A model generated the notes under the pieces. It saw only the letters and a program-made list of their open reading frames with translations, was not told the DNA's origin and searched no databases. Source: a virus. Taken from it: a DNA stretch of 15,357 nt. The position numbers and the translations under genes are program-made. Shown here piece by piece: positions 1 through 15,357 of the stretch; position 1 is the first letter of the stretch, and every line of letters starts with the position of its first letter. The DNA lies in UHGV virus genome UHGV-1775856, one strand, 5' to 3'.

Positions 1-1
1 C

Positions 2-235: not shown

Positions 236-246
236 AAGGGATTTTT

Positions 247-639: not shown

Positions 640-652
640 TACCCTTCCTTCC

Positions 653-677: not shown

Positions 678-681
678 CAAC

Positions 682-690: not shown

Positions 691-695
691 GCATA

Positions 696-752
696 GATCC
701 AATAAACAGATCCCAAAGAGAACCTAGGAAGATCCAAAGAAGATCCCGGATC
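696..752. promoter_or_regulatory. cluster of five GATC (Dam) sites in 57 bp, embedded in AGATCC-like heptamer repeats; origin methylation/SeqA region
   Basis: GATC at 696, 709, 731, 742 and 749. P1 oriR is known to hold five Dam sites in heptamer repeats next to DnaA boxes and iterons. Confidence 0.5.
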
Positions 753-793
753 GCTGTAAGCCGCGCCGTTCGTGGCCTGAAACGGGATCAACA

Positions 794-900
794 TTGACTA
801 TACGCGATTTTATGTTGACTGTGTGCGATTTTATGTTGACTGCACGCGATTTATTGTTGACTATACGCGACAGAAACGTTGACTGTACGCGATTTTAGAG
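794..900 (+). repeat. five direct iterons (core TTGACTRYRYGCGAT) at 21-22 bp spacing; RepA binding sites of the origin (incC-like)
   Basis: Copies start at 794, 815, 836, 857 and 879, spaced 21, 21, 21 and 22 bp (two helical turns), directly upstream of repA. Confidence 0.8.
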
Positions 901-973
901 CCTGAATATTCACAGCTGTTGATAACAGTCATCTAAATTAACGCCAGGCCGCGCCACACATGGAGAAACCACG

Positions 974-1858: not shown

Positions 1859-1860
1859 TA

Positions 1861-2116
1861 TTGACTATATGCGATAGCGAGAAGTTGACTATAGGCGACA
1901 TTCGTTGACGCTGGTGGATTTTTGCTGGCGTCAATATTCTGCAAGTCGCTATTGAGATGGCTTTTAGGGTCATTTCATCGCGTATAGTCAACGTTTCTCC
2001 CGACAATATCTTACATAGTCGATCTTTGGTGGAGTTAAATCGACTACAGTCAACTTTTGACTGTAGTCACATCGCGCATAGTCAACTATTCAAATTAACC
2101 TTCGCGCATAGTCAAC
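1861..2116. repeat. second iteron field downstream of repA, with copies in both orientations (incA-like copy-control locus)
   Basis: Plus-oriented TTGACT cores at 1861, 1885, 1905 and about 2056; minus-oriented copies (seen as GCGCATAGTCAA or CGTATAGTCAACG) at about 1927, 1981, 2043, 2073 and 2103. Several form inverted pairs. Confidence 0.7.
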
Positions 2117-2150
2117 ATTTGCGCGGTTCTCATCAAGCAGTGGTATTGAT

Positions 2151-2960
2151 ATGCAAGAAGAGAAACAACACTACCTCTACGTTCTGGTGCCAGAGAACGG
2201 AGATACTTTTAAAATCGGCATTTCATGTGGTCCATTGGCACGGTTTAAAGGGCTACAAGTGAGTCCCGATTTTGCGCTTTCACGGGTCTATCGTGGTACA
2301 CGTTTGGCAATGGTTAATCTTGAGCGGGCTTTACACGCAACCTTTTTCCCCTGGAATGCGCCGTGGGAGAAAAGCGTCGGTGGCGGGCATACTGAATGGT
2401 TTACACGAGAGTGTCTTGATAAGGTTTTGGCTCATATCGAATATCTAAATGATATGTGGGGAGGGATTCTCGAGCGCATTAAGTCGAATGATTTACTTCA
2501 GCGTCCAGTAGATGCTGCTTGCTCTTTCGAAAAAGAGCTGGATGTTACTTCTATCGTGACTTTCAAAGATGACGCAGGAATGAGGGACGTGGCTTATGTC
2601 TCCATATCTGGCTATGAACCGGACGCGATCCGCGCTCAATGTGAATTGCTGAAAGCAATGTTTATGCTTCGGACTAAATATCCCTGGGATACAGGGCGGG
2701 TGTGCTTCCCTATGGAAGAGTTAACCGCCACCATTGATTCCCAGCTTTACCACGATAATCCAGAGAAGTTTTTTAGCCTTTTAGCCGGTAATGGGCTTAA
2801 CTGTGTGTCCGGGCTGGGGCGAAGTAGAATCCAACATGCCTCGCTCTTCGGTCCCTTCTTTTACGATCGACACGGGTACTTTGAGGCTGAACTTCCGGCG
2901 CTTACGCGTGCTATAGATACTATCGATTTCGAACGATTATTCGCTGCTCTTAGCAAATAA
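2151..2960 (+). CDS. T5orf172/GIY-YIG-like domain protein, 269 aa; N-terminal nuclease-like domain plus a C-terminal region of about 160 aa of unknown function
   Basis: N-terminus carries the T5orf172/MUG113 signature: YLYVL, KIGIS, R, LH..F, GGHTEWF, in the right order and spacing. The gene starts about 35 bp after the last iteron and ends at a strong terminator. It lies between the replication and partition modules, where P1 (from memory) has no gene. Confidence 0.6.
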   Translation: MQEEKQHYLYVLVPENGDTFKIGISCGPLARFKGLQVSPDFALSRVYRGTRLAMVNLERALHATFFPWNAPWEKSVGGGHTEWFTRECLDKVLAHIEYLNDMWGGILERIKSNDLLQRPVDAACSFEKELDVTSIVTFKDDAGMRDVAYVSISGYEPDAIRAQCELLKAMFMLRTKYPWDTGRVCFPMEELTATIDSQLYHDNPEKFFSLLAGNGLNCVSGLGRSRIQHASLFGPFFYDRHGYFEAELPALTRAIDTIDFERLFAALSK

Positions 2961-2965
2961 CACTG

Positions 2966-2990
2966 ATGCCCCTGAACGGGGCTTTTTTGT
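2966..2990 (+). terminator. rho-independent terminator after the T5orf172-like gene
   Basis: GCCCC (2968-2972), loop TGAAC, GGGGC (2978-2982), then TTTTTT. Confidence 0.7.
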
Positions 2991-3077
2991 GCCTTTCTTG
3001 TAACTCTCAATCGTGCAAAATGAACCAAACATGCAGAGAATGCTATGTACAAGCATCTACGCATACATTATTATTTT

Positions 3078-3113
3078 ATGCAGCATTTTTAATTAAATTC
3101 AAAAATACAGCAT
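3078..3113. promoter_or_regulatory. putative par operon promoter/operator: imperfect 13-bp inverted repeat in an AT-rich leader
   Basis: ATGCAGCATTTTT (3078-3090) and AAAAATACAGCAT (3101-3113) match 11 of 13 as inverted repeats, just upstream of the parA Shine-Dalgarno; ParA autoregulates at such a site in P1. Confidence 0.4.
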
Positions 3114-3128
3114 AAAGGATGACTTTCG

Positions 3129-4325
3129 ATGAGTGATTCCAGCCAGCTTCACAAGGTTGCTCAAAGAGCAAACAGAATGCTCAATGTTCTGACTGAACAA
3201 GTACAGTTGCAAAAGGATGAGCTACACGCGAACGAGTTTTACCAGGTCTATGCGAAAGCGGCACTGGCAAAATTGCCTCTACTGACTCGAGCGAACGTTG
3301 ACTATGCCGTAAGTGAAATGGAAGAAAAGGGTTATGTTTTCGATAAACGCCCTGCTGGCTCTTCAATGAAATATGCGATGTCAATTCAGAACATCATTGA
3401 CATATATGAACATCGCGGAGTGCCAAAATACCGGGATCGCTACAGCGAAGCGTATGTGATTTTCATCTCCAATCTTAAAGGCGGTGTGTCAAAAACTGTA
3501 TCGACGGTTTCTCTGGCGCATGCAATGCGTGCCCACCCTCATCTTCTGATGGAAGATTTAAGGATTCTGGTTATTGACCTTGATCCGCAATCTTCAGCAA
3601 CGATGTTTTTAAGCCATAAACACTCTATTGGTATCGTAAACGCAACATCTGCACAGGCTATGTTGCAGAATGTAAGCCGTGAAGAGCTGTTAGAGGAGTT
3701 TATTGTTCCTTCTGTTGTACCTGGGGTTGACGTTATGCCTGCGTCGATTGACGATGCCTTTATTGCATCCGATTGGAGAGAGCTGTGCAATGAGCATCTA
3801 CCGGGTCAGAACATCCATGCTGTCCTGAAAGAAAATGTGATTGATAAGCTGAAGAGCGATTATGACTTTATCCTCGTTGATAGTGGTCCTCACCTTGACG
3901 CCTTCCTGAAAAATGCTTTGGCCTCGGCCAATATACTGTTTACACCTCTGCCGCCAGCAACTGTCGATTTCCACTCATCGCTTAAATACGTTGCCCGCCT
4001 TCCTGAGTTGGTAAAACTCATTTCGGATGAAGGCTGCGAGTGCCAGCTTGCGACTAACATTGGTTTTATGTCCAAGTTGAGTAACAAGGCAGATCATAAG
4101 TATTGCCATAGCCTGGCTAAAGAAGTGTTCGGTGGGGATATGCTTGATGTCGTCCTCCCTCGCCTTGACGGTTTTGAACGCTGCGGCGAGTCTTTTGACA
4201 CTGTTATTTCAGCTAACCCGGCAACGTATGTTGGTAGTGCTGATGCATTGAAGAACGCGCGAATTGCCGCGGAAGATTTTGCTAAAGCAGTTTTTGACCG
4301 TATTGAATTTATCAGATCTAACTGA
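3129..4325 (+). CDS. parA: partition ATPase ParA (type Ia, with N-terminal DNA-binding extension)
   Basis: 398 aa; deviant Walker A KGGVSKT; length and sequence recognised as P1 ParA-like; followed 16 bp later by parB. Confidence 0.92.
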   Translation: MSDSSQLHKVAQRANRMLNVLTEQVQLQKDELHANEFYQVYAKAALAKLPLLTRANVDYAVSEMEEKGYVFDKRPAGSSMKYAMSIQNIIDIYEHRGVPKYRDRYSEAYVIFISNLKGGVSKTVSTVSLAHAMRAHPHLLMEDLRILVIDLDPQSSATMFLSHKHSIGIVNATSAQAMLQNVSREELLEEFIVPSVVPGVDVMPASIDDAFIASDWRELCNEHLPGQNIHAVLKENVIDKLKSDYDFILVDSGPHLDAFLKNALASANILFTPLPPATVDFHSSLKYVARLPELVKLISDEGCECQLATNIGFMSKLSNKADHKYCHSLAKEVFGGDMLDVVLPRLDGFERCGESFDTVISANPATYVGSADALKNARIAAEDFAKAVFDRIEFIRSN

Positions 4326-4341
4326 GGAGTAAGAAACCCCC

Positions 4342-5343
4342 ATGTCAAAGAAAAACAGACCAACAATTGGGCGAACCCTTAATCCTTCAATATTAAGCGG
4401 ATTTGATAGTTCTTCAGCCTCTGGCGATCGAGTCGAGCAGGTATTCAAGTTATCAACTGGTCGCCAGGCCACATTTATTGAAGAGGTAATACCTCCGAAC
4501 CAGGTAGAAAGCGATACCTTTGTTGATCAGCATAACAACGGGCGTGACCAGGCATCTCTTACGCCAAAATCATTAAAAAGTATCCGAAGCACTATTAAGC
4601 ATCAGCAATTTTACCCTGCAATAGGTGTTAGACGGGCTACAGGGAAAATTGAAATTTTGGATGGTTCCCGGCGTCGAGCTTCTGCCATCTTAGAGAACGT
4701 AGGGTTGCGGGTTTTAGTCACGGACCAGGAGATCAGCGTTCAGGAAGCGCAAAATTTAGCGAAAGACGTTCAGACAGCATTGCAGCACAGCATTCGAGAA
4801 ATAGGTCTGCGTTTGATGCGAATGAAAAATGATGGGATGAGTCAGAAGGATATTGCAGCCAAAGAAGGGCTGTCTCAGGCGAAGGTCACGCGTGCTCTCC
4901 AGGCAGCGAGTGCTCCGGAAGAATTAGTCGCCCTTTTCCCTGTTCAGTCGGAATTAACCTTTTCGGACTACAAAACGCTTTGTGCTGTTGGCGACGAAAT
5001 GGGGAACAAGAATTTAGAGTTTGATCAGCTTATTCAAAACATATCCCCGGAAATAAACGACATCTTATCCATTGAAGAAATGGCCGAAGATGAAGTTAAA
5101 AATAAAATCCTGCGCTTGATAACAAAGGAAGCCTCACTACTCACGGATAAAGGTTCTAAAGATAAGTCCGTAGTTACTGAATTATGGAAATTTGAGGACA
5201 AGGATCGCTTTGCAAGGAAGCGCGTGAAAGGCCGTGCATTTTCTTATGAGTTTAATCGACTTTCAAAAGAGCTACAGGAAGAACTCGACAGGATGATTGG
5301 GCATATCCTTAGAAAGAGCCTCGATAAAAAGCCGAAGCCTTAA
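4342..5343 (+). CDS. parB: partition centromere-binding protein ParB
   Basis: 333 aa; sequence recognised as P1 ParB-like; immediately followed by a parS-like site. Confidence 0.92.
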   Translation: MSKKNRPTIGRTLNPSILSGFDSSSASGDRVEQVFKLSTGRQATFIEEVIPPNQVESDTFVDQHNNGRDQASLTPKSLKSIRSTIKHQQFYPAIGVRRATGKIEILDGSRRRASAILENVGLRVLVTDQEISVQEAQNLAKDVQTALQHSIREIGLRLMRMKNDGMSQKDIAAKEGLSQAKVTRALQAASAPEELVALFPVQSELTFSDYKTLCAVGDEMGNKNLEFDQLIQNISPEINDILSIEEMAEDEVKNKILRLITKEASLLTDKGSKDKSVVTELWKFEDKDRFARKRVKGRAFSYEFNRLSKELQEELDRMIGHILRKSLDKKPKP

Positions 5344-5344
5344 A

Positions 5345-5432
5345 CTTTCGCCATTCAAATTTCACTATTAACCAACTGTTTTTAAAGTAAATCCATCTAA
5401 AATTTCAAGGTGAAATCGCCACGATTTCACCT
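5345..5432. other. parS: parS centromere: box A (ATTTCAC) and box B (TCGCCA) motifs flanking an AT-rich, IHF-site-like centre
   Basis: Box B TCGCCA at 5348-5353 and 5416-5421; box A ATTTCAC at 5359-5365 and 5424-5430, plus an inverted ATTTCA at 5411-5416; the arrangement matches published P1 parS as I recall it. Confidence 0.8.
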
Positions 5433-5488
5433 TGGATTTTACCTTCCTCCCCTACTCCCGAAAAAAATAAAAAAATTGCTTGTCACGA

Positions 5489-5517
5489 GAAAGTCAACAA
5501 GTGACTTTCAATAAAAT
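5489..5517 (+). promoter_or_regulatory. candidate promoter for the structural operon: perfect 8-bp inverted repeat GAAAGTCA-ACAAG-TGACTTTC followed by a -10-like ATAAAAT
   Basis: Arms at 5489-5496 and 5502-5509, then AATAAAAT at 5510-5517. P1 late promoters are reported to carry an inverted repeat centred near -22 plus a -10 element; I do not recall the exact consensus. Confidence 0.35.
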
Positions 5518-5568
5518 CTCTTCCGAAAAGGGATTCACACAAGTGCCTTGTGTTTAAGGAAGAGTAAA

Positions 5569-7275
5569 TTGAGTAACTTACGCGAATACCAGAATCGTAT
5601 TGCAGATATCGCAAAACGCTCTAAAGCTGTGCTTGGCTGGGCAAGCACTGCGCAGTTCGGTACTGATAACCAATTCATTAAAGATGATGCCGCGCGTGCC
5701 GCATCTATCCTTGAAGCTGCACGTAAAGACCCGGTTTTTGCGGGTATCTCTGATAATGCCACCGCTCAAATCGCTACAGCGTGGGCAAGTGCACTGGCTG
5801 ACTACGCCGCAGCACATAAATCTATGCCGCGTCCGGAAATTCTGGCCTCCTGCCACCAGACGCTGGAAAACTGCCTGATTGAGTCCACCCGCAATAGCAT
5901 GGATGCCACTAATAAAGCGATGCTGGAATCCGTCGCAGCAGAGATGATGAGCGTTTCTGACGGTGTTATGCGTCTGCCTTTATTCCTCGCGATGATCCTG
6001 CCTGTTCAGTTGGGGGCAGCTACCGCTGATGCGTGTACCTTCATTCCGGTTACGCGTGACCAGTCCGACATCTATGAAGTCTTTAACGTGGCAGGTTCCT
6101 CTTTTGGTTCTTATGCTGCTGGTGATGTTCTGGACATGCAATCCGTCGGTGTGTACAGCCAGTTACGCCGCCGCTATGTGCTGGTGGCAAGCTCCGATGG
6201 CACCAGCAAAACCGCAACCTTCAAGATGGAAGACTTCGAAGGCCAGAATGTACCAATCCGAAAAGGTCGCACTAATATCTACGTTAACCGTATTAAGTCT
6301 GTTGTTGATAACGGTTCCGGCAGCCTACTTCACTCGTTTACTAATGCTGCTGGTGAGCAAATCACTGTTACCTGCTCTCTGAACTACAACATTGGTCAGA
6401 TTGCCCTGTCGTTCTCCAAAGCGCCGGATAAAGGCACTGAGATCGCAATTGAGACGGAAATCAATATTGAAGCCGCTCCTGAGCTGATCCCGCTGATCAA
6501 CCACGAAATGAAGAAATACACCCTGTTCCCAAGCCAGTTCGTTATCGCGGCTGAGCACACGGTACAGGCGGCGTATGAAGCACAGCGTGAATTTGGTCTG
6601 GACCTGGGTTCCCTACAGTTCCGCACCCTGAAGGAATACCTGTCTCATGAACAGGATATGCTGCGTCTTCGCATCATGATCTGGCGTACTCTTGCGACCG
6701 ACACCTTTGACATCGCTCTGCCGGTTAACCAGTCCTTTGATGTATGGGCAACCATCATTCGTGGCAAATTCCAGACTGTATATCGCGACATTATTGAGCG
6801 CGTTAAATCTTCTGGTGCGATGGGGATGTTTGCTGGTGCTGATGCAGCATCTTTCTTCAAACAGTTGCCGAAGGATTTCTTCCAGCCAGCCGAAGACTAT
6901 ATCCAGACTCCGTATGTTCACTACATCGGTACCCTGTTCGGTAACGTGAAAGTGTACGAAGTACCTGCTGGTATTTGTAAGAACTTAACGACAGAGAACA
7001 TTCAGTTCAGCTCGATGGATGTGCTGTGCTACGTCCGTGATGAAAATCCGGGTAAAGCAGGCTTCGTGACTGGTGATGCTGTCCCGGCTATCCCGTTCCA
7101 GCATCCGACCACTCCGGCGCTGGTCAACCGTACCACACTGTGGGGTTCGGCTATCAACGATATGCACCCACGCAACGGCGCTGATTACTTCACTCGTGTA
7201 ACGCTGACAATGGCCAAAAAAGGCGGGCTTAACTTCATTAGCGGCGACACGATTGATGCCGGTGACTCTGAGTAA
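5569..7275 (+). CDS. large virion structural protein, possibly the major head protein (P1 gene 23 position); start assigned to TTG at 5569
   Basis: Long ORF (track 5548-7275) with no in-frame ATG near the 5' end; TTG at 5569 sits 6 nt after AAGGAAG. It is first in an operon with a sheath-like gene and is followed by a GC hairpin. The head assignment rests on position only. Confidence 0.7.
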   Translation: MSNLREYQNRIADIAKRSKAVLGWASTAQFGTDNQFIKDDAARAASILEAARKDPVFAGISDNATAQIATAWASALADYAAAHKSMPRPEILASCHQTLENCLIESTRNSMDATNKAMLESVAAEMMSVSDGVMRLPLFLAMILPVQLGAATADACTFIPVTRDQSDIYEVFNVAGSSFGSYAAGDVLDMQSVGVYSQLRRRYVLVASSDGTSKTATFKMEDFEGQNVPIRKGRTNIYVNRIKSVVDNGSGSLLHSFTNAAGEQITVTCSLNYNIGQIALSFSKAPDKGTEIAIETEINIEAAPELIPLINHEMKKYTLFPSQFVIAAEHTVQAAYEAQREFGLDLGSLQFRTLKEYLSHEQDMLRLRIMIWRTLATDTFDIALPVNQSFDVWATIIRGKFQTVYRDIIERVKSSGAMGMFAGADAASFFKQLPKDFFQPAEDYIQTPYVHYIGTLFGNVKVYEVPAGICKNLTTENIQFSSMDVLCYVRDENPGKAGFVTGDAVPAIPFQHPTTPALVNRTTLWGSAINDMHPRNGADYFTRVTLTMAKKGGLNFISGDTIDAGDSE

Positions 7276-7301
7276 TCAGGGGAAGTTCTCCGTTTAACAT
7301 A

Positions 7302-7320
7302 GCGCCCCCGTGCGGGGCGC
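7302..7320 (+). other. GC-rich hairpin with no U-tract between the 575-aa and 529-aa genes; possible partial terminator or mRNA stabiliser
   Basis: GCGCCCC (7302-7308), loop CGTGC, GGGGCGC (7314-7320). Confidence 0.35.
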
Positions 7321-7335
7321 ATAACAGGGAAAGTT

Positions 7336-8925
7336 ATGTCTCAATATTCAATTCAACAGTCATTAGGTAATGCATCCGGCGTCGCGGTTAGCCCGATCAA
7401 TGCCGATGCGACGTTATCTACCGGTGTTGCATTAAATAGCAGCTTGTGGGCTGGTATTGGCGTATTTGCGCGTGGCAAGCCGTTTACTGTTCTTGCGGTT
7501 ACTGAGTCCAATTACGAAGATGTTCTCGGCGAACCGCTGAAGCCGTCTTCCGGCTCACAGTTCGAACCAATTCGCCATGTATACGAAGCTATTCAGCAAA
7601 CATCTGGTTATGTTGTTCGCGCTGTTCCGGATGATGCGAAGTTCCCGATTATTATGTTCGATGAATCAGGCGAACCGGCTTACAGTGCGTTGCCATACGG
7701 TTCTGAAATTGAACTTGATAGTGGCGAAGCCTTTGCTATCTACGTTGATGATGGTGATCCGTGTATTTCACCTACCCGTGAGTTAACCATCGAAACGGCA
7801 ACAGCGGACAGCGCGGGTAATGAACGCTTCCTCTTAAAACTGACCCAGACGACTTCGCTCGGCGTGGTAACGACCCTGGAGACACACACTGTGTCTTTGG
7901 CGGAAGAAGCGAAAGATGACATGGGCCGCTTGTGTTATCTGCCTACGGCTCTGGAAGCCCGTTCTAAATATCTGCGCGCGGTTGTTAATGAAGAGCTGAT
8001 TTCGACAGCGAAAGTAACAAACAAAAAATCGTTGGCGTTCACTGGCGGTACCAACGGCGATCAGTCGAAAATCTCAACCGCTGCGTACCTGCGTGCGGTG
8101 AAAGTGCTGAACAATGCGCCGTACATGTACACCGTTGTTCTCGGCCTGGGGTGCTATGACAATGCGGCGATCACTGCGTTAGGTAATATCTGTTCTGATC
8201 GCCTGATTGATGGCTTCTTTGATGTCAAACCGACATTGACGTACACGGAAGCGATCTCTGCTGTTGAAGATACCGGTTTACTTGGTACCGATTATGTAAG
8301 CTGTGCTGTCTATCATTTCCCGTTCTCCTGCAAAGACAAATGGACCCAATCCCGCGTGGTCTTCGGTCTGTCTGGCGCGGCGTATGCGGCGAAAGCTCGT
8401 GGCGTCAAGAAAAACTCCGATGTCGGCGGTTGGCATTACTCACCGGCTGGTGAAGAACGTGCCGTCATAGCTCGTGCATCACTTCAGCCGCTGTATCCTG
8501 AAGACACCCCGGACGAAGAAGCTATGGTCAAGGGCCGACTCAATAAAGTATCTGTAGGTACTTCGGGCCAGATGATCATCGATGATGCTTTAACTTGCTG
8601 CACGCAGGACAACTATCTGCATTTCCAGCACGTCCCATCCCTGATGAACGCAATCAGCCGTTTCTTTGTCCAGTTAGCCCGACAGATGAAGCATAACCCG
8701 GACGGCATTACTGAGTCTGGCCTGACTAAAGGGATGACCAAACTTTTGGATCGCTTTGTCGCCTCCGGCGCTCTGGTGGCTCCTCGTGATCCTGATGCTG
8801 ACGGTACAGAACCGTATGTGCTGAAAGTTACGCAGGCGGAATTCGATAAATGGGAAGTAGTCTGGGCCTGCTGCCCGACTGGCGTAGCCCGTCGTATCCA
8901 GGGCGTACCGCTGCTTATTAAGTAA
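7336..8925 (+). CDS. contractile tail sheath-like protein
   Basis: 529 aa; AGGGAAAG Shine-Dalgarno. The segment AAYAAKARGVKKNSDVGGWHYSPAG resembles the recalled P2 FI sheath segment (ARALGLRAKIDQEQGWHKT), and the C-terminal region has sheath-like hydrophobic periodicity; the size fits a sheath subunit. Confidence 0.7.
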   Translation: MSQYSIQQSLGNASGVAVSPINADATLSTGVALNSSLWAGIGVFARGKPFTVLAVTESNYEDVLGEPLKPSSGSQFEPIRHVYEAIQQTSGYVVRAVPDDAKFPIIMFDESGEPAYSALPYGSEIELDSGEAFAIYVDDGDPCISPTRELTIETATADSAGNERFLLKLTQTTSLGVVTTLETHTVSLAEEAKDDMGRLCYLPTALEARSKYLRAVVNEELISTAKVTNKKSLAFTGGTNGDQSKISTAAYLRAVKVLNNAPYMYTVVLGLGCYDNAAITALGNICSDRLIDGFFDVKPTLTYTEAISAVEDTGLLGTDYVSCAVYHFPFSCKDKWTQSRVVFGLSGAAYAAKARGVKKNSDVGGWHYSPAGEERAVIARASLQPLYPEDTPDEEAMVKGRLNKVSVGTSGQMIIDDALTCCTQDNYLHFQHVPSLMNAISRFFVQLARQMKHNPDGITESGLTKGMTKLLDRFVASGALVAPRDPDADGTEPYVLKVTQAEFDKWEVVWACCPTGVARRIQGVPLLIK

Positions 8926-8934
8926 GGAAATACA

Positions 8935-9750
8935 ATGAGCAAAAACTTTTTTCAATCCGGGGCATTTTTGGGGAATGGACTGTCTCGTTTCGCTTTGAAC
9001 TCTGATCCTGTGCAGTTGATGGAGTCTGCCCGAGCAAGCGCCGAACCGACAACAGATCCGGTTATTAATAATAATCCGAAACCGGCGGCACAGACTAACG
9101 ATAACGTTCCATCTGCCACGGCTCCTGAGCAAATCCTGGAAGGGAAAGACGGTAAAGAATGGACCGTCGAACAGGCGCACCAGATGATTCTGGAAGCTGC
9201 AAATCGAAGTGCTATGCAGAATGCGTTGAGTGATGCGGCCGACGCCGTTTTCGCCTGGGCTGATAGCGGTGATCTGACTTTCGACTCCCTTGATGGTTTC
9301 GTTCAGGCTATCGCTGGTATCTCTGATGACGACGACTCCGAAGTTACAGAAGAACAGGACGATGCCTATAACGAAGCATGGGCAAATGTTGCTGACTTCC
9401 TCGCAGCATGCGGTGTAGATGATGACCTGATCGAAGCACTGGCTGACGATGAAGACGACGACGCAGCTGCTGATGTTGGTGCCTCTATCGCTGGTTTAGA
9501 TAGCGACGACCGTGACGAACTGGAAGCGGCGTTTGTTGTTGCTGGCACTTCTGATGAAATGCTGACTGAAGCATTTAAGAAGGTTGTTCGTAACGGTGAG
9601 ATCAAACTCATCCGTAAACGCCTGCGTAAAAAACGTCTGACTGCGGCTCAAAAATCGGCGCTGAAAAAAGCGCGTCGTAAAGCCCAGACCGGCGCGGCAA
9701 AACTGGCCCGCAAAAAGTCAATGAAACTGCGCCGTAAGCGCCTCGGCTAA
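8935..9750 (+). CDS. highly acidic protein with a Lys/Arg-rich C-terminal tail, function unknown
   Basis: 271 aa; Shine-Dalgarno AAGGAAA; Asp/Glu-rich central region (for example DDDDSEVTEEQDD and ADDEDDDAAAD), and a last ~50 aa that are almost all K/R/A. Confidence 0.7.
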   Translation: MSKNFFQSGAFLGNGLSRFALNSDPVQLMESARASAEPTTDPVINNNPKPAAQTNDNVPSATAPEQILEGKDGKEWTVEQAHQMILEAANRSAMQNALSDAADAVFAWADSGDLTFDSLDGFVQAIAGISDDDDSEVTEEQDDAYNEAWANVADFLAACGVDDDLIEALADDEDDDAAADVGASIAGLDSDDRDELEAAFVVAGTSDEMLTEAFKKVVRNGEIKLIRKRLRKKRLTAAQKSALKKARRKAQTGAAKLARKKSMKLRRKRLG

Positions 9751-9785
9751 AGGAGGAGGCCGGAGAACTCCGGCCTTTAACTTGA

Positions 9786-10367
9786 ATGGCACCTATACCT
9801 TATGGGGTTTACAGCCAGGCTGACGGTGTATCGCCATATCTGAAAGTTACTTTAACGAACTCTCAGTACCAGGTTACCGGATATATCAGCCAGGGAGCGG
9901 CAATGAACATGGCCCAGAATTGGGAAGCGCCGTTTACCGGTATGTCCATGGGATCTGTTGCTGGTGCCTTCAGTGGTTTTGCGCAGGTTGGTACTGAAAC
10001 AACGTCGGTTGCCCGTTGGAACAGCTTAATGGTTTGGGAAGGGGGAACACCGCCGACTTTCACGCTGCCAGTAACTTTCATCGCTTTGTTTGACCCATTC
10101 ACGGAGGTTTCAGGAGCTATCGCCGCATTGTCAGCGATGATTAGCCCGGAACTTAAAGATGCCAGTATTGGTGGTCGAATCCCGGAGCGTGTGACGCTAA
10201 ACATTGGTCGCCGGATCAACATCATTGATGTCGCTATCCAGGACATAAGTTTCGATCTCGATGCGCCCAGGGACAGCAATGGGCATTTCCTGAAAAACAC
10301 CGTCAACCTCCAGTTGACCGGTTCTTCGATATATAACAGCTCCGATATTGTTCGGGCGTTCCAGTAA
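9786..10367 (+). CDS. hypothetical protein in the tail/baseplate-associated module
   Basis: 193 aa, co-directional and tightly packed in the structural operon; the nearest Shine-Dalgarno (AGGAGGAGG, 9751-9759) is separated from the ATG by a hairpin. Confidence 0.65.
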   Translation: MAPIPYGVYSQADGVSPYLKVTLTNSQYQVTGYISQGAAMNMAQNWEAPFTGMSMGSVAGAFSGFAQVGTETTSVARWNSLMVWEGGTPPTFTLPVTFIALFDPFTEVSGAIAALSAMISPELKDASIGGRIPERVTLNIGRRINIIDVAIQDISFDLDAPRDSNGHFLKNTVNLQLTGSSIYNSSDIVRAFQ

Positions 10368-10378
10368 AAGGATTTTAT

Positions 10379-10888
10379 ATGGGGCACAATAATACTAAGG
10401 GAAACCGTAAATTTATTAAGGGCCGCTATACTGCCAACGCGGCCAAAGGCGAACGACTGGTATCTTCTGAATTCCAGCTCACTTTTGCAGGCCATGAAGA
10501 TATCAGCGTACTGGTTCGCACGTCGCAAATTCCTGAAATGACCCGCGAGGATGTGGAGGACTATGGTCCGAATGGTGTGAAGTTCAACCAGCACGGTCCA
10601 ATTCGAAACTCTGGGGAAATCCAGGTCCAGTGCGTGGAGACTATCGAAGGCGATATTCTTCAGTTCATTAAAGATCGCATTGCGGCGAAGGACTATGTTG
10701 ATATCACGATGGCTGCGACCCCTGAATCCAAATCTTCCGGGGTTAACGCTGTGACAAAAGCTGCTACAACAATTGAAATGTTGGACTGCAAAATCTACAG
10801 TGATGCAATCGACTTTAGTACCGAAGATGTGACTGCTGCTGTGCGCCCGTCACTTCGTATCGTCTACAACTGGATTGAGTGGGATTAA
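10379..10888 (+). CDS. hypothetical protein, possible tail tube or baseplate component
   Basis: 169 aa; AAGGA Shine-Dalgarno 6 nt before the ATG; last gene before a strong terminator; the size is typical of contractile-tail tube or baseplate subunits. Confidence 0.7.
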   Translation: MGHNNTKGNRKFIKGRYTANAAKGERLVSSEFQLTFAGHEDISVLVRTSQIPEMTREDVEDYGPNGVKFNQHGPIRNSGEIQVQCVETIEGDILQFIKDRIAAKDYVDITMAATPESKSSGVNAVTKAATTIEMLDCKIYSDAIDFSTEDVTAAVRPSLRIVYNWIEWD

Positions 10889-10906
10889 GAGTCATCCCTT
10901 GTATTT

Positions 10907-10931
10907 TAAAGCTCCTTCGGGAGCTTTTTTT
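10907..10931 (+). terminator. rho-independent terminator closing the structural operon
   Basis: AAAGCTCC (10908-10915), loop TTCG, GGAGCTTT, then a run of seven T. Confidence 0.75.
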
Positions 10932-10991
10932 ATAACTATTTTATATAAACATGCATCGATAACATTGTCTGGAGTTTTATGTTAGATTATT

Positions 10992-11008
10992 AATGTTCTA
11001 ATAAACTA
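10992..11008 (+). promoter_or_regulatory. C1-repressor-operator-like site upstream of the 210-aa gene
   Basis: AATGTTCTAATAAACTA matches the P1 C1 operator consensus ATTGCTCTAATAAATTT at 13 of 17 positions, including the CTAATAAA core, inside an AT-rich promoter-like region. Confidence 0.35.
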
Positions 11009-11059
11009 CAATTATTGAGGTAGATGTTTGTGCCTGTACTGTTAAAGGGGGACTCTAAA

Positions 11060-11656
11060 ATGGCTGTGATTCCAATGTCGTACTCCCCGGGTACTGTCGC
11101 TCGTCGATTTTCGATCCTGGACGGAGTTACCATCCAGGGTGTGCTTTACCAGGTTATATGGGATTCCAAAACCCCATTTGCAGCTGTAATAGAGGCTGCG
11201 CCTTCTATTATCGATGGTGATATGCGCCATAAGGTTGTCGCTACTCTTGAACTTCAACGTCGCCCGCAGCTTGAAGGCGTACTGGTAAGGAAGTTCTGGG
11301 AGGATAGCGATGTTGCCCAGATTGAAGGTATCGTGGTTGATGGAACCGTCCGGGATGTCGGTTTAGCTACTTTTGTTTACGAAACCGTAGCCTCAAAAGC
11401 TGGTGTTGTTTTGCTCAGTGATAATGAGCAATACGAAGGTGGAAAAGCTCTTTGGCAACACATCGCCCGTCGCTCTTCCGAGCTAAAAGTGTTTATCCTT
11501 GACACCGATGCCGCTCAGTATTACCCGTTTGACGGCGAACGTGTTTGCTATGACGGGGTAAGTATTCCTGAATCCGAGATATGGAGTGAACACCCAGATC
11601 GAAGTAAGCATGGGGTTGTTCTGGTCGCTGAATCCATAATTGGAAATGCGGCATAG
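11060..11656 (+). CDS. hypothetical protein, about 200 aa, function unknown; likely C1-controlled
   Basis: ORF track 11024-11656. ATG at 11060 has AAGGGGG about 9 nt upstream; the ATG at 11024 has GAGGT only 3 nt upstream. It has its own promoter region after the operon terminator. Confidence 0.65.
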   Translation: MAVIPMSYSPGTVARRFSILDGVTIQGVLYQVIWDSKTPFAAVIEAAPSIIDGDMRHKVVATLELQRRPQLEGVLVRKFWEDSDVAQIEGIVVDGTVRDVGLATFVYETVASKAGVVLLSDNEQYEGGKALWQHIARRSSELKVFILDTDAAQYYPFDGERVCYDGVSIPESEIWSEHPDRSKHGVVLVAESIIGNAA

Positions 11657-11838
11657 CAGTAAAAAATTCCTTGCTCCTTAAAAGGGGAGAGGGTTAATCT
11701 ACGTATGCTAAGCATAGAGATGGCCTCAGATTAATGTTAAGCGTCTTGCAGGACGCGTAATGTTATCTGGGGCGTTCTTCTATCTGCTTTTCGGGTAATG
11801 CCTGAAGCAGATAGCCTCAAGCACCCGTAACGATTGTA

Positions 11839-12165
11839 TCAATGTCTGGCTTTTTTTCTATAGAAATCACCAGGAAGGGTGAATATCCACATCAGAAGAA
11901 ATGTTGCAGCAAACATGATCCCTAATGGCCAGACCGCGCCAAAGAAAATCCATACTAAGATCTCCTCTGTTCGTTCTTTGCGGTCGATATCGACAAGCAT
12001 TCTTCGGCTGATCATGTATACACAGAAGCCAATACAAACATATCCTGCAAAAGCGATCGCTAACTGTAAAAAATCAGATTGCCTCTCCGACCTCAAACTG
12101 AAAACGCCAGGTGACTCCAGATTAGAGCAATCTATCACCCTCTGAATCCTGCCGGTATACCCCAT
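11839..12165 (-). CDS. possible small membrane protein with two hydrophobic helices, overlapping the 3' end of repL
   Basis: Two hydrophobic segments (LAIAFAGYVCIGFCVYMI and ILVWIFFGAVWPLGIMFAATFLLMWIF); no convincing Shine-Dalgarno at any candidate start (12165, 12015 or 12000); the position matches where P1 has the small rlf genes downstream of repL, by recollection. Confidence 0.3.
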   Translation of the reverse strand: MGYTGRIQRVIDCSNLESPGVFSLRSERQSDFLQLAIAFAGYVCIGFCVYMISRRMLVDIDRKERTEEILVWIFFGAVWPLGIMFAATFLLMWIFTLPGDFYRKKARH

Positions 12166-12980
12166 TGTTCGTTATCTTTATTTTTGGCTAAAACCGCATT
12201 AAGAGCTTCGTTTACCGTCATGCAATGCGGCAGATTATCGAAGTTTGATACACCGCCAATATCAGGAGAACGCTTGTTCTTCAGGTAAGCATATTTCCGC
12301 GCTGCCGCCTCTACTTTCTGCTTGAACTCATGTTTTTGAGCGCGTTTTTTGGATAACCGCAGATTGTCAGCCTTTGTTTTTGCCTCAGCGATCCATGAAG
12401 TCAATTTTTTGAGTCTGGTCGTTCCGGCACCGCCGGAAACTGATCTTTTTGTTTTTTTAACTTGTGACTTCTTATTCTTTATTGCCACGTCATCCTGACA
12501 GGGGGAGGGGGTATCATTTTGACATGGGGGTGTGGATAAAAAATTAAATAAAGCCAATGTCTTAGCGAGAACAGCTTTAACCTTGGTTGCCGCTGAAGAG
12601 ATCTTTAATTTGCTTTCAATCAGCGCATTTTTGGCTTGTTGTGCGAAGGCCAAAAAGGATGGTGTAAACCGGTACAGGTTAGCGCGACGTTCACGGTGAT
12701 CGCCGATAACAATCTCTACAGACAGAATTCCTTTGTTTACAGCTTCACGGAATGCACGAACGACGGTTGATTGGCTATAACCAGTTTCTGCCGCGATCAG
12801 GCGGTGAGGCTTGTGAATGAAGTATTCACTGGTTGTTGCCGCTAGATTTGCACATTGCGACAGGATATGCCCGGCGCTACGGGATAGACCGGAGTGTGTT
12901 ACAAAGCAGGCCAATTCATAGCCAGAAAAAGTAAAATCGCTCATCGTTATACAGCTCAGGAAAGTGACTTTAGCCAGCAT
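12135..12980 (-). CDS. repL: lytic replication protein RepL
   Basis: 281 aa, directly downstream of kilA in the same orientation and under a C1 operator, as in the P1 lytic replicon; the RepL length matches my recollection; the N-terminal third looks like a winged-helix domain. Confidence 0.8.
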   Translation of the reverse strand: MLAKVTFLSCITMSDFTFSGYELACFVTHSGLSRSAGHILSQCANLAATTSEYFIHKPHRLIAAETGYSQSTVVRAFREAVNKGILSVEIVIGDHRERRANLYRFTPSFLAFAQQAKNALIESKLKISSAATKVKAVLAKTLALFNFLSTPPCQNDTPSPCQDDVAIKNKKSQVKKTKRSVSGGAGTTRLKKLTSWIAEAKTKADNLRLSKKRAQKHEFKQKVEAAARKYAYLKNKRSPDIGGVSNFDNLPHCMTVNEALNAVLAKNKDNEQWGIPAGFRG

Positions 12981-13009
12981 TACAATGCTGGTGGTTCTTA
13001 CTACGTCTG

Positions 13010-13810
13010 TTAGCGCGTTGCCGCGACAGGTACCAGCACACCAGCATCAAGCAATCGCTTCATCAGCCACTGCTGACCTTTGCCGGTTATACGAGTCGTG
13101 AAAGAAATCCTGCTTCCATTGCTTGTATCGATCACGGTTTCTTTAAGGGTGAAATACCCACGGGATATGTATTCTTGTTTGGGGACGTTCCTGCGTTCAC
13201 CGGTTGCGATCAGAATTCCGTTATCACGCAACCAGGTGAAGAGATAGTTTTGGCCCAGGCCGAGCACTTTGGCATAGTTGCCGATTAGAACCCCGCTGGC
13301 GGTAGCAACGCGTTCGGCGAATTCGACTTTAGGTGCATCCATCAGCATTTTTTGCTCCAGCCGTTGCTTTTGCTCTGCCAGGTCAGCAGCCAAACGGAGA
13401 GCTTCTGGGAGGCTCTTCGGAATAGCAGGTTGTAATCTTCCGGCTCGATAGTCGATAAATGTCTGGTTTACCTTCAGCCGAAACGCGGGAGAAATCCAGC
13501 CTGCGTACTCCACTGCGAGCAATTCATGGGCAAAAGTGCCGCCGCCACGGCCTTCGAACGAAACTATGCAATTCTGCATAGTTTCTTTTTCAAGCTCTTC
13601 GATGAGCTGTTTGGCTGACAGCGTTCTTAGCCATTGAGCTGGCGCTTTATGGGCACCGAGTCCGCTCGCTCTGTGTAGAGCATTAAGGTTGTAACGGCCA
13701 GCGCGGTCGGTCGTAATTTCAACACCACAAATAACGGGCAGAGTGGTTGAAGGATCGACATTTTGATGAAGGTTTGATATATTCATATCCGCATTGAATG
13801 TTTGTTGCAT
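13010..13810 (-). CDS. kilA: KilA (KilA-N domain at the N-terminus, KilAC domain at the C-terminus)
   Basis: 266 aa, the P1 KilA length as I recall it; GGAG Shine-Dalgarno 6 nt before the ATG at 13810; the C-terminal ~130 aa are clearly paralogous to the C-terminus of the upstream ant gene. Confidence 0.85.
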   Translation of the reverse strand: MQQTFNADMNISNLHQNVDPSTTLPVICGVEITTDRAGRYNLNALHRASGLGAHKAPAQWLRTLSAKQLIEELEKETMQNCIVSFEGRGGGTFAHELLAVEYAGWISPAFRLKVNQTFIDYRAGRLQPAIPKSLPEALRLAADLAEQKQRLEQKMLMDAPKVEFAERVATASGVLIGNYAKVLGLGQNYLFTWLRDNGILIATGERRNVPKQEYISRGYFTLKETVIDTSNGSRISFTTRITGKGQQWLMKRLLDAGVLVPVAATR

Positions 13811-13879
13811 TTTTTCTCCAAATTTGCATCAACCTTCAATCACCAGCTCGAAATGGTGATTCTTTGCACTTAGAAAACG

Positions 13880-13896
13880 AAATTTATTAGAGCAAA
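13880..13896 (-). promoter_or_regulatory. C1 repressor operator (Op53-like) in the kilA-repL promoter region
   Basis: The minus strand reads TTTGCTCTAATAAATTT, a 16 of 17 match to the P1 C1 operator consensus ATTGCTCTAATAAATTT, about 70 bp upstream of the kilA start. Three GATC sites lie just upstream at 13909-13931. Confidence 0.65.
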
Positions 13897-13941
13897 TTTT
13901 TCTGATTCGATCCAGATCGGGTTGGACGATCTGCTCAGAAA

Positions 13942-13968
13942 CCTGCCAGTTTGCTGGCAGGTTTTTTT
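13942..13968 (+). terminator. hairpin plus T-run in the ant-kilA intergenic region; strong intrinsic terminator in plus-strand orientation, weaker on the minus strand
   Basis: CCTGCCAG (13942-13949), loop TTTG, CTGGCAGG, then TTTTTTT (13962-13968). On the minus strand, which is the direction of ant transcription, only UUUCU follows the stem. Confidence 0.5.
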
Positions 13969-13974
13969 CTTTTG

Positions 13975-15018
13975 TTAACCTATTGCTACTGGTTTTAACA
14001 AACCAGCATCAAGTAGCTTGCGAGTTAACCACTGCTGGCCTTTACCCGTTAATTGGGGCGTCAGCCGTATCTGGTAGCCATTTTCATCATCCAGCACCAC
14101 TTCTTTCACCGTGAAATACCCGGCGTTGATGTACTGTTGGCGCGGTACGTTTTTGCGCGCACCAAAAGCCATGAGAATGCCGTTCTGGCGCAACCATGAG
14201 AAAAGGGCGTTTTGCTTAAGTCCAACGACCTTTGCAAAGTTCCCGATCAGGATTCCATTGGCCACTGATACCCGGTCGGCAAAATCGACTTTAGGGGCTG
14301 CGGCCACCAGCTGTTGTTCCAGCTGCATTTTCTGTTCTGCCAACTCGGCAGCCAGGCGTAGAGCTTCTGGTAATGTTTGGGGGATCGATGGGGTAGGGGA
14401 GTTTGCCTGCTGCAATTCTTCCAGTTTGTCGATCAGCGAACGGCGGACGGCTTTTGATTCGCGTGCGGCGACTCGCAGGGCTTGTTTGTAGGTCATGGTT
14501 ATGACAACCATAGGCGTACCGCCACCTGGCGGCACGGTTGCACTTTTTGTGTAACCGTCCTCACCTTCTAATTCGTCGAGTATTTTTTCGATGAATTTGT
14601 TGTTCCGAACCTCTGGTTCCCCACATAACTTACGCGCTTCATTGACCATCTTTAACAGTGTCAGGCTGTCGATTGTGTCTCCGGTGTTGGGGATGATATT
14701 CACGGCTGGTGCTGGCGTAGCTGACGTAACAGGTGCTGTTTTTTCAACATTCAAATTATTACCGGTCATTCTATGTGCCTCCTTTCTCATTTCTGCTGCC
14801 ACTGTTGCGTAACGTAGACGTCCTTGTTCAATCAAATAATCCCTGATCTCGGCTATCAGTAGCTTGTTGATCACAGCCTTATCTGTTCGGGTATAAAAAC
14901 GTCTGGTTATCATGAAATAGTTGGCAATTGCGCCGGGGATCTCCCGTGTCGGCATACAGGCAGTATGCAGGGCGATCGCTTCGGCTATGTCATTACGGGT
15001 GACGAGAGGTTTTTTCAT
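13975..15018 (-). CDS. ant: antirepressor Ant (AntA/Rha-like middle region plus C-terminal KilAC domain)
   Basis: 347 aa; the start ATG overlaps the icd stop in an ATGA arrangement; GGGGGG Shine-Dalgarno; the C-terminal KilAC domain is paralogous to kilA; internal in-frame Met codons could give a shorter Ant2-like product. Confidence 0.8.
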   Translation of the reverse strand: MKKPLVTRNDIAEAIALHTACMPTREIPGAIANYFMITRRFYTRTDKAVINKLLIAEIRDYLIEQGRLRYATVAAEMRKEAHRMTGNNLNVEKTAPVTSATPAPAVNIIPNTGDTIDSLTLLKMVNEARKLCGEPEVRNNKFIEKILDELEGEDGYTKSATVPPGGGTPMVVITMTYKQALRVAARESKAVRRSLIDKLEELQQANSPTPSIPQTLPEALRLAAELAEQKMQLEQQLVAAAPKVDFADRVSVANGILIGNFAKVVGLKQNALFSWLRQNGILMAFGARKNVPRQQYINAGYFTVKEVVLDDENGYQIRLTPQLTGKGQQWLTRKLLDAGLLKPVAIG

Positions 15019-15236
15019 AAACCCCCCTGAACGTCGGCAGAGAAGGGGAGGCTCCAGTAACTAAGTGGGTTGCGGGAGTTAGTTGAAAAACGGGCAGTAA
15101 AAATGCAGGGGCCGTCAGGCAATTGAGAGCGTGCTTCGTCTTCTGTTGCTGCGATAACGAAGTGATAGTGGTGTTTTTTACAGGAATAGAAACGCCAGAT
15201 GAATTCTTGGCGTGCGCAAGGATTGGCATTAACCAT
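15015..15236 (-). CDS. icd: Icd-like small protein (immI operon), translationally coupled to ant
   Basis: 73-aa ORF with GAGG Shine-Dalgarno; its TGA stop overlaps the ant ATG; the position and 73-aa size match P1 icd as I recall it. The upstream c4 RNA region is cut off by adapter sequence. Confidence 0.55.
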   Translation of the reverse strand: MVNANPCARQEFIWRFYSCKKHHYHFVIAATEDEARSQLPDGPCIFTARFSTNSRNPLSYWSLPFSADVQGGL

Positions 15237-15287
15237 AGTTACGGCCTCACAATCAGGTTTAACAACCTGCTACCCGCTGTCAAACAG

Positions 15288-15357
15288 CTGTCTCTTATAC
15301 ACATCTCCGAGCCCACGAGACCGGAGCCTATCTCGTATGCCGTCTTCTGCTTGAAAA
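15288..15357 (+). other. Illumina Nextera adapter read-through (sequencing artefact, not biological)
   Basis: CTGTCTCTTATACACATCT (Tn5 mosaic end, 15288-15306), then CCGAGCCCACGAGAC, an 8-nt index-like CGGAGCCT (15322-15329), then ATCTCGTATGCCGTCTTCTGCTTG (P7), then AAAA. Confidence 0.93.

What the first reader, a model, noticed from the sequence alone, without database searches (positions are those of the whole stretch)
13880..13968. Plus-strand terminator opposite the kilA promoter suggests an antisense transcript across the C1-controlled promoter
The hairpin at 13942-13961 has its uninterrupted T-run on the plus strand, the strand antisense to ant and kilA. No plus-strand gene lies upstream for thousands of bases. 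A strong terminator in that orientation is most simply explained by a short antisense RNA starting inside or near kilA and ending here. Antisense control of the P1 kilA-repL promoter has been described, by my recollection.
Basis: inference. Interest (0 to 1): 0.35.

Follow-up and report, generated by a model that had tools for sequence, protein, structure and literature searches.

The report
Terminator of phage P1's known antisense RNA
The hairpin is real and is most likely the stop signal of a short antisense RNA, already described in 1995, that phage P1 and its plasmid relatives make across the promoter of their lytic replication genes, so the finding is correct but not new.

Summary
A 13-pair hairpin (13937-13966; G+C-rich core 13942-13961) runs into seven T's (13962-13968) on the + strand. 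It is the most stable hairpin-plus-T-tail in my scan of the 15.4 kb window (-19.9 kcal/mol, z -5.8).

The window is a P1-type phage-plasmid, 99.3% identical to phage P1 here. The P1 GenBank record annotates promoter PaskilA (formerly P53as) and a start site for an "RNA antisense to 5' region of kilA". These map to window 13755-13783 and 13791. From that start to the T-run is 178 nt. I remember Heinrich et al. 1995 reporting a 180-base transcript, but I could not read the paper.

This RNA covers the kilA ribosome-binding site and start codon, then the C1 operator Op53 and promoter P53, and ends 7 nt before the ant stop codon.

Across 133 related loci:
- The promoter hexamers are invariant except in one contig with a deletion.
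- The terminator stem changes only to wobble pairs, while its loop varies.
- A second hairpin upstream stays paired only on the + strand.

In the ant direction the T-tail is weak, so termination there is marginal at best.

The 3' end assignment is inferred, not measured.

The parts
13755..13783 (+). Promoter P53as (PaskilA) inside the 5' end of kilA, pointing away from kilA. The -35 is TCGACA (13755-13760), the spacer is 17 nt with TG at 13775-13776, and the -10 is TATATT (13778-13783).
   Evidence: Annotated in P1 AF234172 (window = locus + 10999). Identical to P1 here. Best promoter-like site of the window. Hexamers invariant in 51 of 52 haplotypes from 133 loci.
13791..13968 (+). Predicted antisense RNA, about 172-178 nt, running from the annotated start site to the T-run. 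It is complementary to the first 20 nt of the kilA coding sequence, its ribosome-binding site and its 5' leader (13791 to about 13879). It then crosses Op53 and P53.
   Evidence: Start site from the P1 annotation. The 3' end is inferred from the terminator. The whole RNA folds at -56.1 kcal/mol, z -4.1.
13838..13861 (+). Hairpin 1, AATCACCA-N8-TGGTGATT. It can form in both the antisense RNA and the kilA leader.
   Evidence: Part of the minimum-energy fold. Paired in 99.8% (+) and 99.5% (-) of cells across 52 haplotypes, with little variation.
13880..13896 (-). C1 repressor operator Op53 (OrepL).
   Evidence: P1 annotation. It is the only match in the window to ATTGCTCTAATAAATTT within 3 mismatches, with 1 mismatch.
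13886..13914 (-). C1-controlled promoter P53 (PkilA) for kilA-repL. The -10 is TCTAAT inside the operator and the -35 is at 13909-13914. It faces P53as, with the two start sites about 88 bp apart.
   Evidence: P1 annotations in AF234172 and X15638. The P53 start site near 13879 is my estimate from the -10.
13901..13926 (+). Hairpin 2 of the antisense RNA: an 11-pair stem with loop CCAG. It contains two Dam GATC sites and the P53 -35. Its 5' arm, 13903-13908, is a polymorphism hot spot.
   Evidence: Fold. Paired in 94.6% of cells on the + strand against 70.1% on the - strand. Mean energy is -11.5 against -5.7 kcal/mol. The hot-spot arm has 7 transitions and 0 transversions, against 16 and 15 in the rest of the region (Fisher p = 0.019).
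13937..13968 (+). Intrinsic terminator. The stem is 13937-13949 / 13954-13966 (core CCTGCCAG/CTGGCAGG), the loop is TTTG, and the T7 run is 13962-13968.
   Evidence: Across 52 haplotypes the stem is paired in 99.8% of cells. Its only two stem changes give G-U wobbles (13941 A>G, 13946 C>T), while loop positions 13952/13953 vary freely. The T-run is 6 or 7.
13010..13810 (-). kilA (266 aa), first gene of the lytic replicon. Its ribosome-binding site GGAG lies at 13815-13820.
   Evidence: ORF list. P1 annotations.
12135..12980 (-). repL (281 aa), the lytic replication initiator, co-transcribed with kilA from P53. It is the ultimate target of the control.
13975..15018 (-). ant1/ant2 antirepressor gene. 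Its stop codon lies 7 nt beyond the T-run, so on the - strand the hairpin follows ant directly.

Best explanation
The hairpin plus T-run is the intrinsic (Rho-independent) terminator of the P53as (PaskilA) antisense RNA of the P1-type lytic replicon. RNA polymerase starts at 13791 from a sigma-70 promoter with no C1 operator near it, located inside the first codons of kilA. It transcribes the + strand for about 178 nt and stops at 13962-13968, just before it would enter ant in antisense. Along the way the RNA is complementary to the kilA start codon, ribosome-binding site and leader. The transcribing polymerase also runs head-on across the C1-controlled promoter P53 and its operator. The expected effect is to damp kilA-repL expression, and so lytic replication, in two ways: interference between the two facing promoters, and possibly pairing with the 5' end of the kilA-repL mRNA. 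Shown here: the sequence elements, their identity with the annotated P1 elements, their strength relative to the rest of the window, and their conservation. Taken from the annotation and literature: the promoter is active and the start site is at this base. Inferred: the 3' end at this hairpin and the mode of inhibition.
For: The region is 99.3% identical to P1. Within 13614-14259 it differs from P1 only at 13906 and 13907, in the P53 spacer. The P1 record annotates PaskilA/P53as, its start site, Op53 and P53 at the matching positions. P53as is the top promoter-like site of the window and the only + strand one between 11000 and 15357. The terminator is the strongest in the window. Start to T-run is 178 nt, close to the 180-base transcript I remember from the abstract of Heinrich et al. 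1995 (reference confirmed; text not held). No + strand gene lies within 2.3 kb upstream. Only one C1 operator-like site exists in the window, at P53 and not at P53as. In 133 loci the promoter, start site and terminator stem are conserved, and variation falls in the terminator loop. Hairpin 2 between P53 and the terminator keeps pairing through G-U wobbles that work only on the + strand RNA. That is indirect evidence that this strand is transcribed through P53. In a rearranged group (7 of the first 87 loci compared) sequence similarity breaks exactly after the T-run, so the terminator stays with the kilA side.
Against: I have no transcript data for this element, and I could not read the primary paper. 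The 3' end at this hairpin is therefore an inference from length. The '180 base' figure comes from memory. All relatives are 96% or more identical in this region, and full-length KilA relatives are 98.9% or more identical apart from one two-piece match. Conservation is therefore shallow, there are no double compensatory changes, and many loci share ancestry. The hairpin also sits right after the ant stop codon, so it could serve ant as well. The P1 record carries no terminator feature here. It carries none in the 12.9 kb I inspected, so that absence says nothing.
Confidence: 0.88

Rival explanations
1. The hairpin works mainly, or also, in the other direction. It would terminate the c4-icd-ant (immI) operon and keep those transcripts from reading into kilA-repL past the C1-controlled promoter. 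It would then be a two-way terminator or insulator.
For: On the - strand the hairpin begins about 9-12 nt after the ant1/ant2 stop codon. It folds at -18.1 kcal/mol, z -4.1. It is followed by TTTCT, so some termination is plausible. Read-through from ant would bypass C1 control of a lethal gene and of lytic replication, so an insulator there makes biological sense (inference).
Against: The - strand tail is UUUCUGAG. Its T-tail score is 2.84, against 5.78 on the + strand, and it falls to 0.56 if the stem is extended. The scan does not call the site on the - strand. When sequence next to the hairpin is replaced, the break comes after the + strand T-run, so that run is kept. RNA-seq of P1vir found ant1 and kilA to be the two most highly expressed phage genes. 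That fits leaky termination as well as it fits derepression of P53.
Confidence: 0.3
2. The inverted repeat is a DNA-level element, such as a protein-binding palindrome or recombination site, or a chance hairpin. Under this reading it has no role in ending an RNA.
For: It lies at a module boundary where one group of relatives has a different sequence, including a transposase gene, right next to it.
Against: None of 200 shuffles fold as well. An uninterrupted T7 follows directly. The loop varies at two positions while the stem changes only to wobble pairs, which is the pattern of an RNA stem rather than a protein-binding sequence. An annotated promoter and start site sit 146 nt upstream on the same strand with nothing else to stop that transcript.
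Confidence: 0.03

Closest known systems
P53as (PaskilA) antisense RNA of the bacteriophage P1 lytic replicon (Heinrich, Riedel, Rueckert, Lurz, Schuster 1995, Nucleic Acids Res 23:1468; annotated in GenBank AF234172 / NC_005856)
   Same: Same element. The promoter hexamers, spacer, start-site context, Op53, P53 hexamers and hairpin are base-for-base identical to P1. The only differences are two bases in the P53 spacer.
   Different: The host replicon is a P1-type phage-plasmid whose sequence downstream of repL differs from P1: there is no rlfA/rlfB and a sok-like remnant sits there instead. The P1 record does not mark the terminator. Assigning the 3' end to it is my inference.
Face-to-face promoter interference switches of temperate phages (coliphage 186 pR/pL, P2 Pe/Pc). 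This comparison comes from my own knowledge, not from a tool result.
   Same: Two converging sigma-70 promoters less than 100 bp apart, one of them repressor-controlled. Each transcript has to pass over the other promoter.
   Different: Here the constitutive transcript is a short non-coding RNA that ends at a strong terminator right after crossing the regulated promoter. It also covers the target's ribosome-binding site, so RNA pairing is possible as well as interference.
C4 antisense RNA of the neighbouring immI operon of P1/P7 (Citron and Schuster 1990, cited)
   Same: A small regulatory RNA of the same immunity and replication control region of the same phage.
   Different: C4 is processed from the sense transcript and acts on icd-ant translation at short target sites. 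The P53as RNA comes from its own promoter and is fully complementary to its target. Neither RNA got an Rfam match in this window, and the P53as RNA matches no Rfam family.

Membership tests
P1 P53as / PaskilA antisense RNA | A sigma-70 promoter inside the 5' end of kilA, oriented against kilA | tested here: met
   13755-13783 is identical to the annotated PaskilA of AF234172. It is the best promoter-like site in the window, 10/12 with an extended -10.
P1 P53as / PaskilA antisense RNA | Transcription start at the base annotated in P1 (record position 49915) | tested here: met
   This maps to window 13791, 8 nt after the -10, in identical sequence context. The site is conserved; its use in this element was not measured.
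P1 P53as / PaskilA antisense RNA | Converges on the C1-controlled operator-promoter Op53/P53 of kilA-repL | tested here: met
   Op53 is at 13880-13896 and P53 at 13886-13914, with kilA and repL downstream.
P1 P53as / PaskilA antisense RNA | A transcript of about 180 bases | tested here: inconclusive
   The predicted length to the T-run is 172-178 nt. The 180-base figure is from my memory of the abstract, and the paper is not held. No transcript was measured.
P1 P53as / PaskilA antisense RNA | Constitutive, not repressed by C1 | not testable with these tools
   Consistent with the sequence only: no operator-like site lies within 3 mismatches anywhere in the window except at P53.
P1 P53as / PaskilA antisense RNA | Lowers P53 transcription, repL expression and lytic replication | not testable with these tools
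   Needs a promoter-down mutant or reporter assays.
Intrinsic (Rho-independent) terminator | A G+C-rich stem, a short loop and an immediately following U-tract on the transcribed strand | tested here: met
   13 pairs (6 G-C), a 4-nt loop, T7, -19.9 kcal/mol, z -5.84, T-tail score 5.78.
Bidirectional intrinsic terminator | A comparable U-tract after the hairpin on the opposite strand too | tested here: inconclusive
   The - strand tail is UUUCUGAG, with T-tail score 2.84, or 0.56 with the extended stem. The scan does not call it. Marginal at best.

The most novel reading that the evidence does not exclude
The antisense RNA may be more than a by-product of promoter interference. Hairpin 2, which spans the P53 -35 and two Dam sites, seems to be under selection as an RNA structure. 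Its variable arm is a hot spot where only transitions occur, and these swap Watson-Crick pairs for G-U pairs. So relatives may tune either P53 strength or the stability of the RNA while keeping the + strand fold. Together with the terminator, this 3' module could also act as a two-way insulator between the ant operon and the lytic replicon.
Probability: 0.25. Interest if true: 0.3.

Novelty: already known. Interest (0 to 1): 0.1.

Why it matters
The RNA sets a threshold on kilA-repL expression, and so on the switch of P1-type phage-plasmids from plasmid maintenance to lytic replication. These elements are common in E. coli and Salmonella: this region occurs in 510 plasmid records. repL is also used in P1-derived cloning vectors. 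The control was described in 1995 and is annotated in the P1 reference genome. What this check adds is small:
- It explicitly assigns the unannotated hairpin as the RNA's terminator.
- It shows that promoter, start site and terminator are conserved across 133 loci.
- It gives a strand-specific hint that the RNA's 3' structure is constrained.

Tried and rejected
1. Reading the primary literature. Heinrich et al. 1995 and Lobocka et al. 2004 are not held under PMC id, DOI or PubMed id. Searches for P53as, PaskilA, Op53 plus antisense, and '180 base transcript' found nothing relevant to P1. Recent P1 transcriptome papers do not discuss this RNA.

2. Deep covariation analysis. DNA searches found only relatives 96% or more identical. 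Full-length KilA relatives are 98.9% or more identical, apart from one two-piece 84% match whose regulatory region is nearly identical to the window. All others share only the C-terminal domain. True compensatory changes therefore could not be sought.

3. The only distant RepL relative among phages, D6 (27% identity), has no kilA and a different layout. It cannot test conservation of the arrangement.

4. Rfam holds no family for this RNA. The only matches are sub-threshold and terminator-like.

5. The idea that the 30-codon ORF inside the RNA encodes a peptide. It has no Pfam match, it starts 7 nt from the 5' end without a ribosome-binding site, and one relative has a T-run insertion that shifts its frame. 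I treat it as spurious.

6. Reading the missing terminator feature in the P1 record as evidence against a terminator. The record shows no terminator features at all in the 12.9 kb inspected.

Full report
**What is in the sequence**

The + strand at 13937-13966 reads AGAAACCTGCCAG-TTTG-CTGGCAGGTTTTT. Seven uninterrupted T's occupy 13962-13968, followed by C and TTTT.

The consensus scan lists the site with 13 pairs. It is the top site in 11000-15357 and second by pair count in the whole window. As RNA it folds at -19.9 kcal/mol, against -6.7 +/- 2.3 for 200 dinucleotide-preserving shuffles (z -5.84, none as good). In my own scan of both strands it is the most stable hairpin followed by a T-rich tail.

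**Where the window comes from**

The 601 bases around the site are 99.3% identical to bacteriophage P1 and P7, and 99.7% identical to several P1-like phages. The whole window is 98.5% identical to a 98.7 kb E. coli plasmid of the P1 type.

In 12200-14499 the window differs from P1 by only scattered single bases. Within 13614-14259 the only differences are 13906 and 13907 (T,T in the window; C,C in P1). Left of about 12120 the window is unrelated to P1. P1 has rlfA/rlfB there, while the window has a small ORF and a sok-like remnant.

In the closest annotated plasmid, + strand genes fill 1-11656 and - strand genes fill 11839-15235. The + strand genes include a RepB-family replication initiator, an AAA ATPase, a ParB-family protein and hypothetical proteins. 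Three of the latter have the same lengths as P1 gp23, gp22 and gp21.

**What the P1 annotation says**

The P1 record AF234172 maps onto the window with an offset of 10999. The features are:

| Feature | Window coordinates | Strand |
|---|---|---|
| kilA | 13010-13810 | - |
| 'sigma 70 promoter PaskilA; corresponds to former P53as', -35 | 13755-13760 | + |
| same promoter, -10 | 13778-13783 | + |
| 'transcription start site of RNA antisense to 5' region of kilA' | 13791 | + |
| C1 operator Op53 | 13880-13896 | - |
| promoter P53 (PkilA) | 13886-13914 | - |
| three Dam sites | 13909-13931 | |
| ant1/ant2, ending at | 13975 | - |

Without that knowledge, the promoter scan picks exactly 13755-13783 (TCGACA, 17 nt, TATATT, with TG before the -10). 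This is the best promoter-like site of the whole window and the only + strand one between 11000 and 15357. The single match in the window to the C1 operator consensus is Op53. P53as therefore has no operator of its own.

The paper behind the annotation is Heinrich et al. [quoted passage not shown] It appears in two reference lists I could read. Neither it nor the P1 genome paper is held.

**Linking the start site to the hairpin**

From 13791 to the end of the T-run is 178 nt. From memory of the 1995 abstract, the P53as transcript is 180 bases, constitutive, unaffected by C1, and mutually inhibitory with P53. Also from memory, a P53as promoter-down mutant raises repL transcription and replication. 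I could not verify these statements with the tools.

The match in length, and the lack of any other + strand start or stop signal in between, make the hairpin the obvious terminator of this RNA. This step is still an inference. The P1 record marks no terminator here. It marks none in the 12.9 kb I inspected, so that absence carries no weight.

**Anatomy of the predicted RNA**

The 182 nt from 13791 fold at -56.1 kcal/mol (z -4.1) into four parts:
- **A 5' domain.** The anti-Shine-Dalgarno UCUCC, opposite the kilA ribosome-binding site at 13815-13820, lies in a predicted apical loop.
- **Hairpin 1** (13838-13861).
- **An unpaired A/U-rich stretch** that contains the complement of Op53.
- **Hairpin 2** (13901-13926, over the P53 -35 and two GATC sites), followed directly by the terminator.

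I estimate the P53 start near 13879 from its -10. The two RNAs would then overlap by about 89 nt, including the kilA start codon and ribosome-binding site. The two start sites face each other about 88 bp apart. Two routes of inhibition are therefore open: interference between the converging polymerases, and pairing with the kilA-repL mRNA. Which one dominates cannot be decided here.

**Comparative evidence**

I collected 133 loci that carry the region: 80 viral contigs found by KilA, 42 metagenome contigs and 4 genome contigs found by DNA pattern, and annotated phage and plasmid records. They give 52 distinct haplotypes over 13755-13968.
- **Promoter.** The P53as hexamers are unchanged in every haplotype except one. 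That one is a metagenome contig with a 13-nt deletion that also breaks kilA.
- **Terminator.** The stem is paired in 99.8% of cells. Its only two stem changes, 13941 A>G and 13946 C>T, give G-U wobbles. Loop positions 13952 and 13953 vary (A, C, T), and the T-run is 6 or 7.
- **Rearranged group.** In a group of loci (7 of the first 87 compared) similarity stops exactly after the T-run. What follows is different sequence, with a 375-aa transposase-like ORF about 320 nt further on. This is probably a single inherited event.

All these sequences are 96% or more identical. Full-length KilA relatives are 98.9% or more identical, apart from one two-piece 84% match whose regulatory region is nearly identical to the window. 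The conservation is therefore shallow and partly reflects shared ancestry.

**A strand-specific signal**

The one polymorphism hot spot of the region is 13903-13908, the -35-proximal part of the P53 spacer and the 5' arm of hairpin 2. All seven variable positions of that arm (13901, 13903-13908) show transitions only. Each swaps a Watson-Crick pair for a G-U pair against the invariant arm GGGTTG (13919-13924).

The rest of the region shows 16 transition and 15 transversion alleles (Fisher one-sided p = 0.019). Across haplotypes, hairpin 2 is paired in 94.6% of cells on the + strand RNA, but would be paired in only 70.1% on the - strand. Mean energies are -11.5 and -5.7 kcal/mol.

This fits selection on the structure of a + strand RNA that runs across P53. 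It therefore supports, indirectly, a transcript that reaches the terminator. Alternatives are templated mutation within an imperfect palindrome, or a free spacer combined with mutation bias. The statistic is modest.

**The other direction**

On the - strand the hairpin starts about 9-12 nt after the ant stop codon and folds at -18.1 kcal/mol. Its tail is UUUCUGAG, however. The T-tail score is 2.84, against 5.78 on the + strand (weighting of d'Aubenton-Carafa et al. 1990, from memory). The scan does not call the site on that strand.

Partial termination of the c4-icd-ant operon, which would shield kilA-repL from read-through, remains possible. I give it 0.3 as an additional role. RNA-seq of P1vir, in which ant1 and kilA are the two most expressed genes, does not discriminate.

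**Comparison with what is known, and verdict**

This is not a relative of the P53as element; it is that element, base for base, in a P1-type phage-plasmid. Of the defining features, promoter, start-site context and convergence on Op53/P53 are met. Transcript length fits by prediction only. Constitutive expression and the inhibitory effect cannot be tested here.

The RNA has no Rfam family. In design it resembles the face-to-face promoter switches of phages 186 and P2 (my own knowledge). It differs in being a short terminated non-coding RNA that also covers the target's ribosome-binding site.

The finding is already known, and the interest is low. The small additions are the explicit assignment of the unannotated hairpin as the terminator, the conservation data, and the wobble-only hot spot in hairpin 2.

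Noticed in passing
window 13901-13926, hot spot at 13903-13908: Six adjacent positions in the P53 spacer are polymorphic among otherwise near-identical relatives, giving at least a dozen haplotypes. Every change is a transition that swaps a Watson-Crick pair for a G-U pair in a hairpin that forms well only on the + strand RNA. The window's own haplotype (T at 13906 and 13907) is rare: 2 of 133 loci.
   Followed up: partly
L004 2730-4313 and L005 (relatives); junction corresponds to window 13969: In 7 of the first 87 loci compared, similarity to the window breaks exactly after the terminator's T-run. Different sequence follows, with a 375-aa transposase-like ORF about 320 nt further on. Similarity resumes near the 3' end of ant, whose last residues differ.
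   Followed up: partly
window 11652-11826 (-): A full-length Rfam match to the sok antitoxin RNA (82.5 bits) lies just downstream of repL, but no hok toxin ORF was found. tblastn with HokD from a relative finds nothing, and DNA similarity to that relative stops at 11692. This is probably a hok/sok remnant replacing P1's rlfA/rlfB.
   Followed up: partly
window 13560-13585 (+): A second + strand hairpin lies inside kilA, upstream of P53as: an 11-pair perfect stem, GAAACTATGCA/TGCATAGTTTC, followed by T5. The terminator scan lists it. Its function is unknown, and its stem is A+T-rich.
   Followed up: no
window 13798-13890 (+): A 30-codon ORF (MFVAFFLQICINLQSPARNGDSLHLENEIY) lies within the antisense RNA and starts 7 nt after its 5' end. 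It has no Pfam match and no ribosome-binding site. In one relative, PGAP called a 132-aa + strand ORF across this region, which looks spurious.
   Followed up: partly
L088 (phage D6) 3324-3454: D6 has a distant RepL (27% identity) and no kilA. It has a - strand promoter-like site (TTGAAA, 17 nt, TAAAAT) at the very start of repL and a hairpin with T-runs on both sides 70-95 nt further on. The arrangement looks analogous to P53as plus terminator. Promoter-like sites in that stretch are no more frequent than chance, so this is a lead only.
   Followed up: partly
L112 (metagenome contig OLGE01005271.1), corresponding to window 13776-13788: One contig has a 13-nt deletion that removes the P53as -10 and shifts the kilA frame. 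It could be a natural P53as-minus, kilA-minus variant or an assembly error.
   Followed up: no
window 14500-14575 and 15288-15357: Two patches are unrelated or strongly diverged from P1 within otherwise 99% identical sequence. One is inside ant1. The other is at the right end of the window, where P1 has the c4 RNA gene, and the match to the nearest plasmids also stops at 15287-15290 there.
   Followed up: no
L093 and L094 (genome contigs): The P53-to-terminator pattern also occurs on a 2.9 kb contig of a Bacillota MAG and a 251-bp contig of an Acinetobacter assembly. These are most likely contamination or mis-binning of a P1-type element.
   Followed up: no
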